This document shows positions 17,621-28,811 of a stretch of 64,000 nucleotides of DNA, one piece after another. This stretch comes from a virus, in IMG/VR virus record IMGVR_UViG_3300032562_000014, positions 8,645 to 72,644 of that record; one strand, given 5' to 3'. The notes under the pieces were generated by a model. That model made no database searches. It saw only the letters and a list, made by a program, of their open reading frames with translations, and was not told the DNA's origin. Each line of letters opens with the position of its first letter. Positions within the stretch are counted from its first letter, which is position 1. The position numbers and the translations under genes are program-made.

Positions 17621-17780
17621 CAAAACGGGAAATGAGTACCGAAAATATACAGCAGATAGTAGATATAGCTATGAAGCCAAACGGGCAGACAGCAAACAAG
17701 CACATACTTGTCGTTGTGATCGTGTGCATGATACCTACTATCTTATTCGGCATAGATAACGGCATTGCCTATAGTGCCAT

Positions 17781-17810
17781 AAAAAAGCCACCCATATACA
17801 GGTGGCTTTT
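17781..17810. terminator. Bidirectional intrinsic terminator
   Basis: AAAAAAGCCACC-catataca-GGTGGCTTTT between convergent transcription units. Confidence 0.75.
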
Positions 17811-17831
17811 CTCATTCAGTGTATTCCGTAA

Positions 17832-19421
17832 TTAGCTTTCTGATACCACACATTCTGTGTTCAATAAAAGCTGCGCTATAGAGGCTGCATTCTCCAGCGC
17901 TATCCTGGTTACCTTTACCGGGTCTATAACGCCTGTTTCAAAGAAGTGTTCATACTCCCTTGTTTTGGAATTGTAGCCATAGTCGCCACCGGTCTTTTTT
18001 ACTTCATCAATGATAGCGTCTATGTCTTTTACCCCTGCATTTTGTAGTATAAGGCGAGCCGGTTCGCTTATGGCTTCTTCAACGATAAGTACACCTGTTG
18101 CTTCATCTTTATTGGCTACCTCTATCAGTTGGATAGCCTGTATAGCATTCAGGTAAGCTACACCACCACCGGGCAGCACACCTTCGTCTATGGCCGCGAG
18201 TACAGCACACAGGGCATCTTCAATACGATCTCTTTTTTCTTTCACTTCCGGTTCGGTAACGCCACCTACATAGATAACGCCTATGCCGGATGTGAGTTTT
18301 GCAAGCCGGCCAGCCAGTGCCTTCTTTTCGTAGGGTTGCTTGCTTTCGGCCACCAGTCCTTCGATCATCTTTGCGCGGGCTGCAATGTCAAATTCTTTTC
18401 CGCGAGCGCCGGTGATCAGTGTAGATTCCCGGTCAATAACCACCTTATCTGCATATCCGAGATAGGATGAAGGTGCATTGACTAAATTGTGGCCCTTGTC
18501 GCGGCTGATTAGTGTGCCGTTGGTAATGATGGCAATATCTTCCATGATGTCCTTCGTGATCAGGCCGTCTTTAGGCATCTTTATCACGCATATAGGGCGC
18601 TTCATCTGGGCCACAGTAGCGTTGATGTTTTGCAGGGCTTCTCCGTCCATCTCTTCGCAGATAATAAGGATAGCCTTTTTGTCATTGAGCGAATACTTGA
18701 TCAGCGGCTCTACTTCATTCCACTGGCTTATCTTGTTGTCGCACATCAGTATGTTCACGTTCTCCAGCACTACTACATCGCTGGTATCGGACTGGCGCAT
18801 GTACGGGGATATGTAGCCACGATCTATCTTCACGCCTTCTACCTTTTTTACGTAGGTTTCCCCGGTGAGTGAATCTTCAATGCTCACAAGGCCATGCTCT
18901 CCTACCTGGCACACGATGTCGCTCACCAGTTTACCTATTTCGGTATTGTTATTGGCTGATATGGAAGCGATGTTGATCAACTGCTCCGGGTCGCGGCCTA
19001 TTATTTTGGCAGCCTTACCCAGTTGTTCTACTACGCATTTAGTGCCCTTTTTTATACCTTCTGTGAGATCGGCTGCACTGGCACCTTCATTCAGTTCTTT
19101 GATGCCTTTATTGATTAACTGCTGCACAAGGACTATAGACGTTGTGGTGCCATCACCTGCGGCCTCTGCGGTATTGGTGGCCACCTCTTTCACAAGCTGT
19201 GCGCCCATGTTCTCCAAAGTATCCGGCAACTGGCGTATGCTGCGCGCTACGGTCACTCCGTCCTTTGTGAGATACGGCACAGGTCTGTTCGGGTTAAGGC
19301 TCTGTATCATCACGGTATTGCCGGATGGCCCCAGTGTGGACTTCACGGCATCTGCCAGGATGTTGATGCCATTGCTAAGTTTGGTTCTCGCTTCTTTGTC
19401 AAAATCTACTCTTGTACTCAT
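17832..19421 (-). CDS. groEL: Phage-encoded group I chaperonin GroEL
   Basis: 529 aa. ADAVKSTLGP, TKDGVTVA, AGDGTTTS, EKRDRIEDA, GVLPGGG and GVIDPVKVTR are all present; there is no GGM tail. Confidence 0.95.
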   Translation of the reverse strand: MSTRVDFDKEARTKLSNGINILADAVKSTLGPSGNTVMIQSLNPNRPVPYLTKDGVTVARSIRQLPDTLENMGAQLVKEVATNTAEAAGDGTTTSIVLVQQLINKGIKELNEGASAADLTEGIKKGTKCVVEQLGKAAKIIGRDPEQLINIASISANNNTEIGKLVSDIVCQVGEHGLVSIEDSLTGETYVKKVEGVKIDRGYISPYMRQSDTSDVVVLENVNILMCDNKISQWNEVEPLIKYSLNDKKAILIICEEMDGEALQNINATVAQMKRPICVIKMPKDGLITKDIMEDIAIITNGTLISRDKGHNLVNAPSSYLGYADKVVIDRESTLITGARGKEFDIAARAKMIEGLVAESKQPYEKKALAGRLAKLTSGIGVIYVGGVTEPEVKEKRDRIEDALCAVLAAIDEGVLPGGGVAYLNAIQAIQLIEVANKDEATGVLIVEEAISEPARLILQNAGVKDIDAIIDEVKKTGGDYGYNSKTREYEHFFETGVIDPVKVTRIALENAASIAQLLLNTECVVSES

Positions 19422-19453
19422 AATTATGTATGGTTGGTTGATGAAAAAATGGG

Positions 19454-21124
19454 TTACGCAATAGTGGTTTCTGCGGGTATGGTGGCATACAGGTCGCCCC
19501 GGCGCATAAACAGGTATTCTTCACCTTCTATCTTTATAGAGGTGCCGGCCAGTTTCTTGTACAGTACGGTATCTCCTTCATTGATGTCGGTGACAAGTTC
19601 TCCTTTGGAGATAATGGTTCCCTTCTGTGGCTTTTCTTCGCCCTGTATTTTGATGAACATATCATCTGCCTGTTCCGGTATTGGTTTTACAAAAACAAGG
19701 TTGCCCAGTGGTTTTACTTGGTTCATTTCGTTTATTTTAGCTGTGATAAAATCTGAGTGAGCGATAAGGTATTTCTTACCGAAAAGGTTGATGGGGTATA
19801 GTTCTTTGTAGGACGCGAGGCATATATTCGGTAACTGCTTTGGGAACTCTATCTTGCAGCGCATCAGGTGGTTGCGGTTTAGCCCGGCACTCTCGGCAAT
19901 GGCATCTGCTTTCAGGCGCTCCATCTTATTTTCAAAGTCCTGTACTTTGAGTGCAAATTCAGGGTCGCTTTTGTCTATGCGCTCCACATCGGCGCGGTAG
20001 CCTTCGTACTTAGCCTGAAACTTCTGCACCCGGTCCTTCTTTTTGTGATCAAGTGTTATGGTGAATGAGCTCAGGTCGCGGCATTTGGATAAGTCGCTGT
20101 CAAGGCCGGGAGATAGCAATTCATCATTCTGTCGGTTGCTATGCTCAAAGATGTCAAATTCAAAATTGAGGAACACGCTTTTATTGAACGGGATTATTTT
20201 CATATCCGGTATCTTCCCGTACAATTTACGGTTCTCTATTTTGCCGAATATCTCGCGGGCATTAGGGTCAAGGCAGTTGATGATGCGGTGTTCTTCTATG
20301 TAGTTATCAAAGCTACCCTCAAACCTGCGGAGTATGCGGTATGGCTGTGACTCTATGGAGTGGTGAAGGATGGCCATGTCGCCCACATTCAGCAATGGAT
20401 ACATCTTCTGCGCCTCACTACCAATATCCACCACCTCGCCATACTGCAGGTTGCGCAACATGTGAATATATAAAGGTGACTGCACAAAACCGCTGTCTGT
20501 AGTTTCGCGCTTGATCTTCTGTGCGGCCAGGTCTATAGATACAATGATACGATGTGGTGATACTAAGCCATTGACTGTAAATACGTCCTTCTCGTAGAGT
20601 ATGTGGTACGTCTTATCTCCTTCGCGAAATGAAGGGTATATGGCCACCTTTACTTCTTTGCGAAATTCAATGATGGCGCCCGATTTGAAATAAGACCCTG
20701 CCGGGGCCTTGTATATGATTGCTTTGCGCGGAGTGCCTTCGGTATCATCAGCGATTACCAACCCATCTTTGGTTACATGGCTCTGGGTGACAATTTCTAC
20801 AAACAGGCGGTTGTATGGTTCTCCATTGACGCGCCATACTTCATCTTCAAACACTACCGGATGCTCCACGCCGTATATCTCTATAGACCTGTATGATCCT
20901 GTATCTTGCTGGGTGCGCTTGTATAAGATGTTGTCCCCTTTTTTAAAAGAAGACCCTTCACAAGTGTATAAAACCACACCACGCGCGCATAGGTTGTTGA
21001 TGTCGTCCGGCGCTATAAGCCCATCACCCAGGTCTTCGGCGGATGTGTTTGGCTCAACGATCAGTGTCTTGTAAATAGTCCCTGTGCTATGCACATAGGG
21101 GAGTGGCTGGTAGGTGGCGCTCAT
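19454..21124 (-). CDS. groES: Tandem multi-domain GroES-like co-chaperonin
   Basis: The C-terminal 90 aa are a canonical Cpn10 (VKPLGNLVFVKP...KPQKGTIISKG...GDTVLYKKLAGTSIKIEGEEYLFMRRGDL). Three to four degenerate Cpn10-like units precede it. It lies directly upstream of groEL. Confidence 0.8.
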   Translation of the reverse strand: MSATYQPLPYVHSTGTIYKTLIVEPNTSAEDLGDGLIAPDDINNLCARGVVLYTCEGSSFKKGDNILYKRTQQDTGSYRSIEIYGVEHPVVFEDEVWRVNGEPYNRLFVEIVTQSHVTKDGLVIADDTEGTPRKAIIYKAPAGSYFKSGAIIEFRKEVKVAIYPSFREGDKTYHILYEKDVFTVNGLVSPHRIIVSIDLAAQKIKRETTDSGFVQSPLYIHMLRNLQYGEVVDIGSEAQKMYPLLNVGDMAILHHSIESQPYRILRRFEGSFDNYIEEHRIINCLDPNAREIFGKIENRKLYGKIPDMKIIPFNKSVFLNFEFDIFEHSNRQNDELLSPGLDSDLSKCRDLSSFTITLDHKKKDRVQKFQAKYEGYRADVERIDKSDPEFALKVQDFENKMERLKADAIAESAGLNRNHLMRCKIEFPKQLPNICLASYKELYPINLFGKKYLIAHSDFITAKINEMNQVKPLGNLVFVKPIPEQADDMFIKIQGEEKPQKGTIISKGELVTDINEGDTVLYKKLAGTSIKIEGEEYLFMRRGDLYATIPAETTIA

Positions 21125-21142
21125 TAAAATATGGTTGTGCGA

Positions 21143-21177
21143 AAAAAGAAAATTACCTGTGTACAGGTATAAAAGTA
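21143..21177. promoter_or_regulatory. 35-bp duplicated operator/promoter, copy 1, with palindrome TACCTGT-gt-ACAGGTA
   Basis: Identical to 25967-26001; lies in the divergent region upstream of groES. Confidence 0.75.
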
Positions 21178-21248
21178 CGTCTTCTTATGACATTAGCAAA
21201 CTTATCAGGTTATTTTTGAACTTGAATAGGAAAAATAATCTACTTTAT

Positions 21249-21734
21249 ATGGATATTGTAACCGTTGTTGCCCTTTATGATGAGAACTTGAACTACCATC
21301 CGGGAGGGCAAACCTACGCCATACCTGTAGATTCACTGATACAGGGGACAAAGACACTTCCTACAGCCCAGTATATAGCAGGTACAGTAGGCATACAGGC
21401 CACGGCAGATATGTTGAAAGTAAAGACAGCCAATTATGGTGTTATCTATCTGAACATGACGCTGGCCCAATACAATGCTGCAATACAGGCCGCATCACTC
21501 ACTCCGCCAATAGAGCAAGTGCTTACGCTGACAGTGCCGACAAATACCCCGGCGGGAACCACAGTTACCAATTCGGCCCTGTTTAACGCTGTGCTGATCA
21601 ATGTAAGTAAGAATGGCGCGAACCTTGACCTGCGTACCATATCCATGGTAAATTCAGGCACAAATGGAGTAGTGACATTGCCATCTGCGCTTGTAAATAC
21701 TGACGTTATTGCATTCACCTTTTATACTAAATAA
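21249..21734 (+). CDS. Putative virion/capsid accessory protein
   Basis: Start at the ATG at 21249 (MDIVTVVAL). Beta-rich, Thr/Val/Asn-rich composition. Confidence 0.55.
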   Translation: MDIVTVVALYDENLNYHPGGQTYAIPVDSLIQGTKTLPTAQYIAGTVGIQATADMLKVKTANYGVIYLNMTLAQYNAAIQAASLTPPIEQVLTLTVPTNTPAGTTVTNSALFNAVLINVSKNGANLDLRTISMVNSGTNGVVTLPSALVNTDVIAFTFYTK

Positions 21735-27239: not shown

Positions 27240-28811
27240 ATGGCAATAGCGTACAACAGGACCCCGCAGTATCCTCAGCGTATTCAGACATCTGTGCAGA
27301 GCGCCACATCGCAGCTTCCTGCCTTCATTCAAATGTATCGCCCGCTGCGCGACTTTATTGACAACGGCGGCCTGGCATCCCTCGGCTATGCCGAAGAGGA
27401 TATAGCGCGCTGGAACTCAGACTTCCGACCAGGTGTGATCAATATCGGTGGCCGTCCTATAGAGATAGACTTCTTCAAAGACCTGATGGGTGGCGAAGAG
27501 AAAGAAGTAGACGCTTCTGACTACTACATAGAGTATAACTCTTATGTAGACCTGAACATATACGCTGAAAATGCCGTGACCGGTACTTACCAGACCGTAA
27601 CAGGTTGCTCTTTCGGCAGCACTGTGAATGGTTCATATACCGGTAATGCCGCGACCTTCAATATCGCAGCATCACAGTATGCCAACAACGGCCTCAACTC
27701 AAACATCAACGTAGGTGACGAGATACTCATCTACCAGGATAACAAATGGGTGCAGGTGATCAAGAAGGACACAACCGTTCCTTATGCCCACGCTATCACC
27801 GTGGCCCCTAAAGACCCGGCCTACATCATCAACATCCCTGCAAAACTGAAGATGTTCCCTGTACACGCCCAGCACACATCCGGCTACAGCGACAGGACAA
27901 CGATCAGCCTGCATACAGAATGGGAAACTCCCGGCTATGTAAAGCGCATACAGCCCGCTTCGTATCGTATAGACTACGAAACGCCGCGTAACCTGGACCG
28001 CGCATGGCAGGATCTCGTGACCTTCCCTATCATATTCGATATGGCGACAGGCGCGCTGATAGACAGCTTTGACCTGAAAGCATCACAGGCAGCCCGCGAA
28101 GCAATGGTGATAGGTGTGAACCTCGCCTTCTTCACAGGTGAAAAACTGAAAAACACCGGCCTTACCGGAGCTAACTTCACCCAGCAGTACAACGGGTTTG
28201 ATGGCTTCCTGACTACCTTATTCTATGGTGGTGGCAACATATGGGAGTATGACAACAGCTATGGCTTCGACCTGGATGCTGACTACAACCAGATCACCCT
28301 GCAGAACGATGCGCTGAAACTGGCCACCGAATACCTGATGCTCGTTTCCAAAGCATTCAAACGCCAGATGGAAAACAGGGCGCAGGATATGTTCAAGGGC
28401 AACTCCGGCCAGTGTACTTTTGAAACCTTCACAAGGGGAGAAGCAGACCGCGATACCAATACCTTTGTAACACGCCAGGGCATCAAGTCCTACGCATGGG
28501 GCGGTGATACCCTCCATATAAAAGAAGTAGGCGCATGGTCTGATACCCGCAGCGTAGGTAACGGCTACTACAAAAACATGGGCATCCTACTCCCCGGCAC
28601 AGGTATGACAGACAGCAACGGTAACTCCGTAGCGCCTGTAGAATACTACCGTCCGAAGGGCCGCACCATATCTTCCATGTGGACAGAAACATTCCGCGAT
28701 GAAATGCAGCTCTCCGGCGCTGACAAGTTCACCGGCACTATCGAAAACACCATCATGGCCGCAGTGAACTGCGTAGAAAACATGTATGCAATCATGCCTA
28801 AATACTTCTAA
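27240..28811 (+). CDS. Major capsid protein
   Basis: 523 aa with strong codon bias. GFDGFLTTLFYGGG resembles the G..G.L motif of crAss-like capsid proteins. It follows the scaffold gene and is followed by a hairpin. Confidence 0.75.
   Translation: MAIAYNRTPQYPQRIQTSVQSATSQLPAFIQMYRPLRDFIDNGGLASLGYAEEDIARWNSDFRPGVINIGGRPIEIDFFKDLMGGEEKEVDASDYYIEYNSYVDLNIYAENAVTGTYQTVTGCSFGSTVNGSYTGNAATFNIAASQYANNGLNSNINVGDEILIYQDNKWVQVIKKDTTVPYAHAITVAPKDPAYIINIPAKLKMFPVHAQHTSGYSDRTTISLHTEWETPGYVKRIQPASYRIDYETPRNLDRAWQDLVTFPIIFDMATGALIDSFDLKASQAAREAMVIGVNLAFFTGEKLKNTGLTGANFTQQYNGFDGFLTTLFYGGGNIWEYDNSYGFDLDADYNQITLQNDALKLATEYLMLVSKAFKRQMENRAQDMFKGNSGQCTFETFTRGEADRDTNTFVTRQGIKSYAWGGDTLHIKEVGAWSDTRSVGNGYYKNMGILLPGTGMTDSNGNSVAPVEYYRPKGRTISSMWTETFRDEMQLSGADKFTGTIENTIMAAVNCVENMYAIMPKYF

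What the first reader, a model, noticed from the sequence alone, without database searches (positions are those of the whole stretch)
19454..21124. Single-chain poly-GroES co-chaperonin with a possible internal start
Seen: three consecutive degenerate Cpn10 units: LIVEP..DGLIAP..RGVV..KKGDNILY..IEIYG..VVFEDEV; RLFVE..TKDGLVIAD..PRKAII..EGDKTYHILYEKDV; RIIVS..ETTDSGFV..QYGEVVDIG..LNVGDMAI. A probable fourth unit (IIPFNKSVFL...INLFGKKYLIAHSDFI) is interrupted by a long charged helical insertion, then comes a canonical GroES. That last domain starts at Met467 (ATG 19726) behind an A-rich leader, CTAAAATAAACGAA. Known: GroES domes are heptamers, chloroplast Cpn20 is a two-domain fusion that mixes with Cpn10, and T4 gp31 enlarges the cage for its capsid protein. 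Inference: a ~5-domain chain plus free monomers from the internal start could build an asymmetric 7-domain lid for the 523-aa capsid protein, which is near the cage size limit.
Basis: partly seen in the sequence, partly recalled or inferred. Interest (0 to 1): 0.85.

Follow-up and report, generated by a model that had tools for sequence, protein, structure and literature searches.

The report
Five-domain phage GroES lid chain
An uncultured lake-water phage encodes, just ahead of its own GroEL folding machine, a single protein made of five GroES lid units, and a start codon kept in all its fused relatives suggests that the last unit is also made as a free GroES.

Summary
ORF 19454-21124 (-) is a real 556-aa gene directly upstream of a phage GroEL. 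All five proposed units are Cpn10-like.

- U1, U2 and U5 are supported by profile comparison (98.4-99.6 %) and Pfam.
- U3 and U4 are supported by predicted fold: T4 gp31 Z 7.0, Thermus Cpn10 Z 6.7, and both together on tandem Cpn20/23 Z 8.6. Profile comparison through less-diverged relatives gives 90.6 % and 93.3 %.
- U4's mobile loop is replaced by a helical hairpin of about 87 residues.

The family has 45 hits and occurs in two forms. One is fused. The other is split into a ~460-aa four-domain protein plus a separate GroES gene, seen at DNA level in L006.

Three lines favour the internal start. All 30 of 30 fused relatives examined keep a Met in the variable junction linker. Its upstream context is start-like. 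The mRNA around it is unusually unstructured. The start is well supported by comparison but unproven.

The 5+2 seven-position lid stays an inference. The capsid link is only a lead.

New here: U3-U4 also exists as a stand-alone ~265-aa family.

The scan found a homologous five-domain gene before on other DNA (e1-5965127). I found no paper describing such a lid.

The parts
19454..21124 (-). poly-Cpn10 co-chaperonin gene, 556 aa plus stop
   Evidence: 45 homologues; intact in contigs of 4 other runs
20816..21073 (-). U1, Cpn10-like domain (residues ~18-103); disordered mobile-loop segment at 29-43
   Evidence: hhalign vs U2 99.6 %, vs U5 98.4 %; pLDDT below 50 at 29-43
20564..20815 (-). U2, Cpn10-like domain (residues 104-187); disordered mobile-loop segment at 115-127
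   Evidence: Pfam PF00166 25.6 bits; NCBIfam GroES 105-184; hhalign vs U5 99.0 %
20225..20563 (-). U3, degenerate Cpn10-like domain (residues 188-300) with two short helices in the mobile-loop region
   Evidence: VIA Z 7.0 to T4 gp31, 96 aligned; hhalign 87.6 % and 90.6 % via the stand-alone family
20135..20200 (-). U4 N-terminal strand(s) (residues ~309-330), before the insertion
   Evidence: AF2 strands 305-325; VIA Z 6.7 to Thermus Cpn10 spanning residues 309-465 of the protein
19874..20134 (-). insertion at the mobile-loop position of U4 (residues 331-417): disordered stretch, then an antiparallel helical hairpin (351-382, 388-415)
   Evidence: AF2 secondary structure; only helical-hairpin structures match it
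19727..19873 (-). U4 C-terminal part of the barrel (residues 418-466)
   Evidence: hhalign of the family's equivalent part vs U5, 93.3 %, 67 columns
19724..19726 (-). junction ATG (Met467), candidate internal start codon
   Evidence: Met in 30 of 30 fused relatives; context at the 92.6th percentile of 607 internal ATGs; least structured of the 9 internal Met windows
19457..19726 (-). U5, canonical GroES domain (residues 467-556); short mobile loop, no roof hairpin
   Evidence: Pfam 63.3 bits; VIA Z 10.3; alignment to Thermus Cpn10 and Cpn20
17832..19421 (-). phage GroEL (529 aa), 32 nt downstream on the same strand
   Evidence: Pfam Cpn60_TCP1 E 9.6e-57, phrog_5725 E 1.6e-135; a GroEL follows the homologue in 8 of 8 loci
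21197..21204 (-). TAAGTTTG, matching TAnnTTTG (the Bacteroidota -7 promoter motif as I recall it), 73 nt upstream of the start codon
   Evidence: the motif is common (0.57 per kb per strand), so this is weak

Best explanation
The gene encodes a co-chaperonin for the phage's own GroEL. It is built as one chain of five Cpn10 (GroES) domains.

Domain features:
- U1 and U2 are tandem Cpn10 units with flexible loops at the mobile-loop position.
- U3 is a degenerate unit whose loop region has gained short helices.
- U4 is a Cpn10 barrel whose mobile loop is replaced by a helical hairpin of about 65 residues.
- U5 is an ordinary GroES without a roof hairpin.

Shown: the five-domain architecture, its conservation, its fixed position ahead of groEL, and the existence of natural split forms (four-domain protein plus separate GroES).

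Inferred: the chain occupies five neighbouring positions of a seven-position lid. The other two positions are filled by free U5. Free U5 would be made from the same mRNA by initiation at the junction ATG (Met467) in a host that does not use Shine-Dalgarno sequences.

On this reading one gene supplies both a lid scaffold and lid monomers. The lid would be intrinsically asymmetric, with one position carrying a helical arm instead of a GroEL-binding loop. What the arm does is unknown. My guess is that it holds a client or changes lid geometry for a large client such as the head protein.
For: Architecture: Pfam and NCBIfam hits for U5 and U2. hhalign gives U1, U2 and U5 at 98.4-99.6 %, and U3 and U4 at 90.6 % and 93.3 % via the stand-alone family. 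The full AF2 model has pLDDT 80.2 and pTM 0.74, with low-confidence loops at 29-43, 115-127 and 487-494.

Folds: U5 Z 10.3; U3 Z 7.0 to gp31; U4 Z 6.7 to Cpn10.

Neighbour-like packing: U3+U4 superpose on both domains of tandem Cpn20/23 (7ekq_Q Z 8.6, rmsd 3.8, 154 aligned). 7ekq_S was the top hit among 48,161 representative chains.

GroEL partner: directly downstream here and in 8 of 8 related loci.

Selection on the whole frame: 11 synonymous and 1 non-synonymous change in a variant contig, and no indels in 4 runs.

Free GroES needed: 7 of 37 aligned relatives end just before U5. L006 shows stop, a 43-nt spacer, then a separate 94-aa GroES gene and GroEL. The quick tree needs at least 3 fusion/fission changes.

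Internal start:
- Met in the 8-15-residue junction linker in 30 of 30 fused relatives, against about 22 % expected per sequence. Its position varies from 1 to 9 residues before the conserved Pro. Only the start Met and invariant M222 are as universal.
- ATG in 7 of 7 fused genes with DNA in hand.
- Upstream 20 nt score at the 82-99.8th percentile of 607 internal in-frame ATGs, within the range of 100 putative gene starts.
- The 60-nt window around the ATG folds at -2.4 kcal/mol against a gene median of -9.9, the 97.4th percentile. The six related genes lie at the 72nd-98th percentile.
- In Bacteroidetes, initiation is tuned by mRNA structure and upstream nucleotides rather than by SD (PMC6847099, abstract read).
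- Gene starts in these phages are A-rich and G-poor, with no SD.
Against: No direct evidence of a ~10-kDa product.

The window's own junction context is only moderate. It lies at the 19th percentile of putative gene starts. It has G, not the favoured A, at -3; A is at -3 in 4 of the 7 fused genes (read against the PMC6847099 abstract).

A-rich, unstructured RNA could simply reflect a hydrophilic Lys/Asn/Thr linker. The 30 relatives are not independent observations.

The start-site model rests on first-ATG ORF calls, and its background set includes the junction ATGs themselves.

Ring geometry and stoichiometry were not obtained from any tool. [quoted passage not shown]

Z scores of 6.7-8.6 for U3 and U4 are middling by the tool's own notes. 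They rest on an AF2 model from only 8 sequences (pLDDT 72.6).
Confidence: 0.55

Rival explanations
1. Single product only. The junction Met is a leftover of an old gene fusion, or has a structural role. The five-domain chain caps GroEL by itself as an incomplete or asymmetric lid, or borrows host GroES monomers to fill the ring.
For: There is no direct evidence for a small product. The window's junction has G at -3 and only a moderate start-like score. [quoted passage not shown] Hydrophilic linkers are naturally A-rich at the codon level.
Against: A relic Met should have decayed in a poorly conserved linker at 31-42 % identity, yet it is present in 30 of 30. Its position shifts by up to 8 residues, which argues against a fixed structural role. 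Split variants that make a separate GroES arose or reverted at least 3 times on the quick tree, which suggests that free GroES is wanted.
Confidence: 0.25
2. The N-terminal module, above all U3-U4 with its helical arm, is not a lid segment. It is an adaptor or regulator that docks on GroEL (phage or host) through Cpn10-like loops. It would use the arm to deliver a client such as the head protein, or to shut out host GroES. U5 would be the only true lid subunit.
For: U3-U4 exists on its own as a ~245-300-aa protein in roughly a hundred 50 %-identity clusters, far more than the five-domain form. So it has a function that does not depend on U1, U2 or a fused U5. Two of 20 stand-alone members weakly match a PHROG named head morphogenesis (E 1.4e-4). 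U4 has lost the GroEL-binding loop altogether.
Against: U3 and U4 sit relative to each other as the two domains of ring-forming Cpn20/23 do (top of 48,161 chains). U1 and U2 keep loop motifs like GroES (consensus, compared with the alignment). The module is repeatedly fused to a canonical GroES, in P0116, P0119 and P0146 as well as this subfamily. That fits subunits of a single assembly.
Confidence: 0.15
3. Assembly or annotation artefact, or a decaying pseudogene: two or more genes wrongly read as one frame.
For: None found. Considered only because long multi-unit ORFs can arise from lost stops.
Against: 38 of 45 database relatives are of similar full length. Contigs of 4 other runs show no indels in the parts they cover, and one variant contig spans the whole gene with an 11:1 synonymous to non-synonymous ratio. 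The AF2 model is confident.
Confidence: 0.02

Closest known systems
Plastid tandem co-chaperonins Cpn20/Cpn21 and Chlamydomonas CPN20/CPN23 with single-domain CPN11 (PDB 7ekq chains Q, R, S)
   Same: Cpn10 domains are joined head to tail in one chain. This is the best structural match of the full model (7ekq_R, Foldseek E 2.1e-6) and of U3-U4 (Z 8.6), and the best PDB sequence match of U5 (E 6.7e-12). Tandem chains combine with single-domain subunits into hetero-oligomers of seven GroES-like domains (PMC5780408 passages). That is the logic proposed here.
   Different: Two domains there, five here. Plastid origin there, phage here. Cpn20 has no domain with its mobile loop replaced by a helical hairpin. 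Its monomer comes from a separate gene, not from a proposed internal start.
Bacteriophage T4 gp31 (PDB 1g31, 2cgt)
   Same: A phage-encoded GroES homologue thought to adapt the chaperonin for the head protein (PMC5780408 passage). It lacks a roof hairpin, as does U5 (the gp31 feature is recalled; the U5 gap is seen). It is the best single-domain structural match of U3 (Z 7.0, 96 of 107 residues).
   Different: gp31 is a single-domain homo-heptamer that works with the host GroEL. This protein has five domains and comes with its own GroEL.
Shorter multi-domain phage GroES-like proteins (PHROG phrog_13932, profile of 200 positions; BFVD models S0A356 'Chaperonin cpn10' of Cellulophaga phage phi18:3, 200 aa; A0A516L046, 304 aa)
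   Same: Viral proteins with more than one GroES-like domain. They match the model over 159-396 alignment columns. U5 and the C-part of a stand-alone U3-U4 protein hit phrog_13932. Earlier notes of this scan describe two- and three-domain forms.
   Different: Two or three domains rather than five. I did not see their sequences, gene context or any helical insertion. They are database entries, with no study found.
Engineered concatenated GroES chains (six-, seven- or eight-domain concatamers)
   Same: Covalently linked GroES domains can form a working lid. Six- and eight-domain concatamers are reported as functional (Guo et al. 2015 as cited in PMC5780408, passage read). The fused GroES7 of Nojima et al. 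2008 is recalled from memory, not seen.
   Different: Those are artificial, identical repeats. Here the units are natural, diverged and specialised, and their number is five.
Phage groES-groEL operons of aquatic viruses (Marine et al. 2017, PMC5649160)
   Same: Viral GroES>GroEL gene pairs are common. That paper also reports modified mobile loops and roof-hairpin deletions (passages read).
   Different: The paper treats GroES as a single cpn10 domain. The words 'fused' and 'tandem' do not occur in it. Its 'kinesin-like protein' next to GroES might be a coiled-coil relative of U3-U4, which I did not test.

Membership tests
Cpn10/GroES (Pfam PF00166) | Sequence match to the family model above its curated cut-off | tested here: met
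   U5: 63.3 bits against the 21.1 cut-off. U2: 25.6 bits when residues 1-466 are scanned, but 18.2 bits as an isolated piece. U1, U3 and U4 get no Pfam hit alone and are linked only by profile-profile comparison.
Cpn10/GroES (Pfam PF00166) | GroES beta-barrel fold | tested here: met
   On predicted models only. U5 Z 10.3, rmsd 1.6, 72 aligned. U3 Z 7.0 to gp31. U4 Z 6.7 to Thermus Cpn10. U1 and U2 were not searched separately by fold.
Cpn10/GroES (Pfam PF00166) | Flexible mobile loop with a hydrophobic tripeptide that binds the GroEL apical domain | tested here: inconclusive
   Low-confidence loops lie at the expected place in U1, U2 and U5. The family consensus G-L-x-I-P in U1 and U2 resembles the Thermus loop G-I-V-L-P. 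U3 has G-L-x-L-S-P followed by helices. U4 has no such loop. Binding was not tested.
Cpn10/GroES (Pfam PF00166) | Forms a seven-position ring that caps GroEL | not testable with these tools
   No coordinates or stoichiometry were obtainable. Needs native MS or cryo-EM.
Cpn10/GroES (Pfam PF00166) | Gene next to groEL | tested here: met
   GroEL lies 32 nt downstream, and in 8 of 8 related loci.
Tandem co-chaperonin Cpn20/Cpn21/CPN23 | Two Cpn10 domains head to tail, packed as ring neighbours | tested here: met
   U3+U4 align to both domains of 7ekq_Q (154 aligned, rmsd 3.8, Z 8.6). But there are five domains here, not two.
Tandem co-chaperonin Cpn20/Cpn21/CPN23 | Plastid or apicoplast protein of eukaryotes | tested here: not met
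   The record is a 72.6-kb virus contig with an endolysin and a large terminase. It works like Cpn20 and is not a member.
Tandem co-chaperonin Cpn20/Cpn21/CPN23 | Mixes with single-domain Cpn10 to give seven domains | not testable with these tools
   Inferred only, from split relatives with a separate GroES gene and the conserved junction Met.
T4 gp31-type phage co-chaperonin | Single-domain subunit that acts with the host GroEL | tested here: not met
   Five domains, and a phage GroEL next door.

The most novel reading that the evidence does not exclude
One gene is a programmed two-product unit. Full-length translation gives a five-domain lid scaffold. Initiation at the conserved junction ATG gives free GroES. 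Together they would build a deliberately asymmetric seven-position lid on the phage GroEL. In that lid one position carries a ~5-nm helical arm instead of a GroEL-binding loop. The arm would hold or orient the crAss-type head protein, or prop the lid open. The stand-alone U3-U4 proteins would install the same arm into host or phage GroES rings in many other phages.
Probability: 0.3. Interest if true: 0.85.

Novelty: new variant of a known kind. Interest (0 to 1): 0.72.

Why it matters
GroES lids are textbook sevenfold homo-oligomers. The only natural exception studied so far is the two-domain plastid Cpn20, which mixes with single Cpn10.

This phage family would be a natural single-chain lid with five specialised, non-equivalent positions. 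One of them has swapped its GroEL-binding loop for a helical arm.

That makes several questions directly testable in a simple two-gene system:
- How many mobile loops does a lid need?
- Can lid asymmetry be used to handle one large client?
- Can a single ORF set the stoichiometry of a hetero-oligomer through an internal start in an SD-less host?

The repeated fusion and fission at one junction, and the wider stand-alone U3-U4 family, also give a natural series of two, three, four and five domains for comparison.

Tried and rejected
The split form is shown at DNA level only in L006.

Scans that led nowhere:
- A genome-contig scan with A2 found no relative.
- A viral-contig scan with A1 gave 1 locus. 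The metagenome scan gave 7, of which L007 and L008 are near-identical.
- For the stand-alone U3-U4 family, the viral-contig scan with A5 found none.
- A degenerate DNA pattern gave 4 loci that are unrelated genes.
- As a result, the gene context of the stand-alone family is unknown.

Complex prediction (full chain plus two copies of U5): no verdict. Score 0.24 against a mark of 0.32, and controls were not run. This is neither for nor against binding.

The look-up of sequencing runs: no RNA holder listed, so there is nothing on expression.

The 523-aa ORF: no PHROG, Pfam or PDB-sequence match.

GenBank phages (tblastn): only the U5 part matched. There were 2 records at E <= 1e-5 with the whole protein and 16 records with U5 alone. 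None matched the N-module.

The sigma-70 promoter and terminator scan was at chance level.

The careful tree did not finish, so the quick IQ-TREE tree is the one reported.

Literature: searches found no paper on a multi-domain phage GroES. Supplements were closed, so the supplementary figures of PMC5649160 could hold relevant alignments that I did not see.

Rows dropped: A1 holds P0001 plus 36 of the 45 hits. I left out P0002 (identical) and P0008, P0012, P0017, P0020, P0021, P0028, P0030 and P0033, only to keep the alignment small.

Rejected readings: assembly artefact or pseudogene, and an internal promoter just before U5. The only other TAnnTTTG on this strand within 17700-21300 lies about 580 nt upstream of Met467, at chance density.
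Full report
WHAT IS THERE. The window is most of a 72.6-kb virus record, estimated 64 % complete. It carries an endolysin and a large terminase. On the minus strand, against the direction of almost all other genes, lie two genes. One is a 556-aa ORF at 19454-21124. The other, 32 nt downstream, is a 529-aa GroEL at 17832-19421 (Pfam Cpn60_TCP1 E 9.6e-57; phrog_5725 'chaperonin groEL' E 1.6e-135).

FIVE CPN10 DOMAINS: U1, U2 AND U5. U5 (467-556) is an ordinary GroES. It scores Pfam 63.3 bits and VIA Z 10.3 to Thermus Cpn10. Its residue-level alignment to Thermus Cpn10 and to Chlamydomonas Cpn20 shows a mobile loop three residues shorter and a gap where the roof hairpin would be. U2 reaches the Pfam cut-off when residues 1-466 are scanned (25.6 bits against 21.1). 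As an isolated piece it does not (18.2 bits). U1, U3 and the U4 region (290-470) are invisible to Pfam on their own. I cut the 37-row family alignment A1 into units and compared the profiles. This gave U1-U2 99.6 % (E 1.3e-24), U1-U5 98.4 %, U2-U5 99.0 % and U3-U5 87.6 % over only 26 columns. U4 reached only 24-28 %, in two pieces that do align to the first strand and the last strands of U5.

FIVE CPN10 DOMAINS: U3 AND U4. An AF2 model of the whole chain is confident (pLDDT 80.2, pTM 0.74). Its low-confidence loops lie exactly where mobile loops should be in U1, U2 and U5 (29-43, 115-127, 487-494). It also shows a long helical hairpin (351-382, 388-415) between the first strands and the rest of U4. 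A second model of U3-U4 alone came from 8 sequences (pLDDT 72.6). It gave the tandem co-chaperonin 7ekq_S as the top hit among 48,161 representative chains (Z 8.6, 149 aligned, spanning both domains). In the second look it gave these domain-specific matches:
- U3 to T4 gp31: Z 7.0, 96 aligned.
- U4 to Thermus Cpn10: Z 6.7, 68 aligned across the insertion.
- Both together to 7ekq_Q: Z 8.6, rmsd 3.8, 154 aligned.

These Z values are middling by the tool's own notes. However, each covers a whole domain, and the matches are the expected family. Everything else in the list matches only the helical hairpin. Foldseek on this model gave no hit at E <= 0.001. Its top rows are all GroES-like folds (7ekq_R prob 0.97, GroES prob 0.94).

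A WIDER FAMILY. A profile of the four-domain N-module (A4) was searched against 1.84 billion representatives. It found 207 proteins at E <= 1e-3, 109 at <= 1e-10 and 35 at <= 1e-30.
- About 24 of the 150 listed rows cover the whole module.
- Four (354-407 aa) cover U2-U4.
- Nearly all of the roughly 115 rows from P0069 down begin at U3. Most are 217-300 aa long, so they are stand-alone U3-U4 proteins.
- Some longer ones (P0116, P0119, P0146) carry a canonical GroES after U3-U4 (phrog_3188 E 1e-16 to 1.2e-23).

In these less-diverged relatives the Cpn10 origin is visible by sequence. Nine of 20 stand-alone members hit the PHROG for GroES (best E 2e-7). Their profile matches U5 twice: once over U3 (90.6 %, 83 columns) and once over the part of U4 after the hairpin (93.3 %, 67 columns). 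So U3-U4 is the old core, and this subfamily added U1-U2 in front and U5 behind.

CONSERVATION AND CONTEXT. The word-indexed search found 45 proteins. One is identical. The rest are 31-42 % identical, and 38 of the 45 are 541-592 aa. A GroEL homologue (39-46 % identity) follows the gene in 8 of 8 fetched loci, of which L007 and L008 are near-identical. Contigs of four runs not flagged as the source were laid on the gene. Three are identical over the parts they cover. The fourth (X20) spans the whole gene with 13 substitutions and no indel. Twelve of these lie in the ORF, 11 synonymous and one F390S in the hairpin. The single frame is therefore real and under purifying selection along its whole length.

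FUSED AND SPLIT FORMS. Seven of the 37 aligned proteins (456-467 aa) end just before U5. Locus L006 shows the arrangement at DNA level. A 473-aa four-domain ORF ends in TAG. A 43-nt spacer follows. Then comes a separate 94-aa GroES gene, and then GroEL. On a quick tree of the N-module the split label needs at least three changes, and split forms are nested among fused ones. The careful search did not finish.

THE INTERNAL START. There are four lines of comparative evidence.
- Conserved Met. All 30 of 30 fused proteins in A1 have a Met in the 8-15-residue linker between U4 and U5, where about 22 % would be expected per sequence. Its distance to the conserved Pro of the first strand varies from 1 to 9 residues. 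Over the whole alignment, only the start Met and invariant M222 are equally universal.
- The codon. It is ATG in all 7 fused genes for which I have DNA.
- Start-like context. Putative gene starts in the window and loci are A-rich and G-poor from -14 to -3, with no SD (100 starts). This fits a Bacteroidota host, where initiation is tuned by mRNA structure and upstream nucleotides (PMC6847099, abstract). Scored with that model, the junction ATGs fall at the 82.0-99.8th percentile of 607 internal in-frame ATGs. The window's falls at 92.6. All lie within the range of real starts.
- Low mRNA structure. The 60-nt window around Met467 folds at -2.4 kcal/mol against a gene median of -9.9, the 97.4th percentile. 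It is the least structured of the nine internal Met windows. In the six related genes the values are at the 72nd-98th percentile, and the junction is the least structured Met window in four of them.

Several points weigh against this. The window's -3 base is G, with A at -3 in 4 of the 7 genes. Its score is only at the 19th percentile of starts. A hydrophilic linker would be A-rich anyway. The relatives are not independent. Nothing here shows a protein product.

HOW IT MOST LIKELY WORKS. Shown: five Cpn10 domains in one chain, next to a phage GroEL, with natural variants that make the last domain separately. Inferred, by analogy with plastid Cpn20/23 plus Cpn11, which form hetero-oligomers of seven GroES-like domains (PMC5780408, passages): the chain fills five neighbouring lid positions, and free U5 fills the other two. 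The neighbour-like packing of U3 and U4 supports ring incorporation. I could not obtain ring geometry. The one complex prediction gave no verdict and is reported only under Tried and rejected. The helical hairpin sits at the mobile-loop position of U4. Its role is a guess: client holding or a change in lid geometry.

THE CAPSID LINK. It is weak. The 523-aa ORF has no PHROG, Pfam or PDB-sequence match. There is only a feature-based lead to clusters in which 12-28 % of members carry Crass_capsid.

COMPARISON AND NOVELTY. It works like Cpn20/Cpn10 but is not a member of that plastid family. It is a GroES relative but not a gp31-type single-domain lid. Shorter multi-domain viral GroES-like proteins exist in databases (and phrog_13932). 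Earlier notes of this scan describe two-, three- and one other five-domain form on other DNA (e1-5965127). My results were obtained before I read those notes, and they agree. My literature searches found no paper describing a multi-domain phage GroES. The main survey of viral chaperonins does not contain the words 'fused' or 'tandem' (PMC5649160). Supplements were closed. I rate it a new variant of a known kind, with interest 0.72.

Noticed in passing
window 21143-21177: Contigs of all four laid runs break or fork at this 35-bp stretch (loose ends at 21143 and 21177, and 35-nt contigs of higher depth). It therefore behaves as a repeat in assembly graphs. It contains the hairpin TACCTGTACACAGGTA at 21154-21169, just upstream of the chaperonin gene. 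I did not check that copy.
   Followed up: partly
proteins P0069-P0183, alignment A5: A stand-alone two-domain family of ~245-300 aa (U3-U4: two degenerate Cpn10 barrels with a helical hairpin) is much more widespread than the five-domain form. Two of 20 members weakly hit a PHROG named head morphogenesis. Its gene context is unknown. It may be the 'kinesin-like protein' reported next to viral GroES genes in PMC5649160, which I did not test.
   Followed up: partly
window and loci L001-L007, 20 nt before putative gene starts: Gene starts are A-rich and strongly G-depleted from -14 to -3, with no Shine-Dalgarno signal (100 starts). This fits a Bacteroidota host.
   Followed up: partly
window 27240-28811 (+): The 523-aa ORF has no PHROG, Pfam or PDB-sequence match. 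Its nearest named Atlas clusters carry PF23898 Crass_capsid on 12-28 % of members (score 0.98-0.99). This is a lead that the phage is crAss-related and that this ORF is the head protein.
   Followed up: partly
window 19457-19726 (-), U5: Compared with Thermus Cpn10, U5 has a mobile loop three residues shorter and a gap of about nine residues where the roof hairpin lies. Roof-hairpin deletions in viral GroES are mentioned in PMC5649160.
   Followed up: partly
window 21197-21204 (-): TAAGTTTG fits TAnnTTTG, the Bacteroidota -7 promoter motif as I recall it. It lies 73 nt upstream of the start codon. The only other match on this strand within 17700-21300 is inside the gene at 20308-20315.
   Followed up: no
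proteins P0119, P0146: Some relatives carry an extra N-terminal region matching phrog_11383 (unknown function) ahead of U3-U4 and a C-terminal GroES. This is another architecture of the same family.
   Followed up: no
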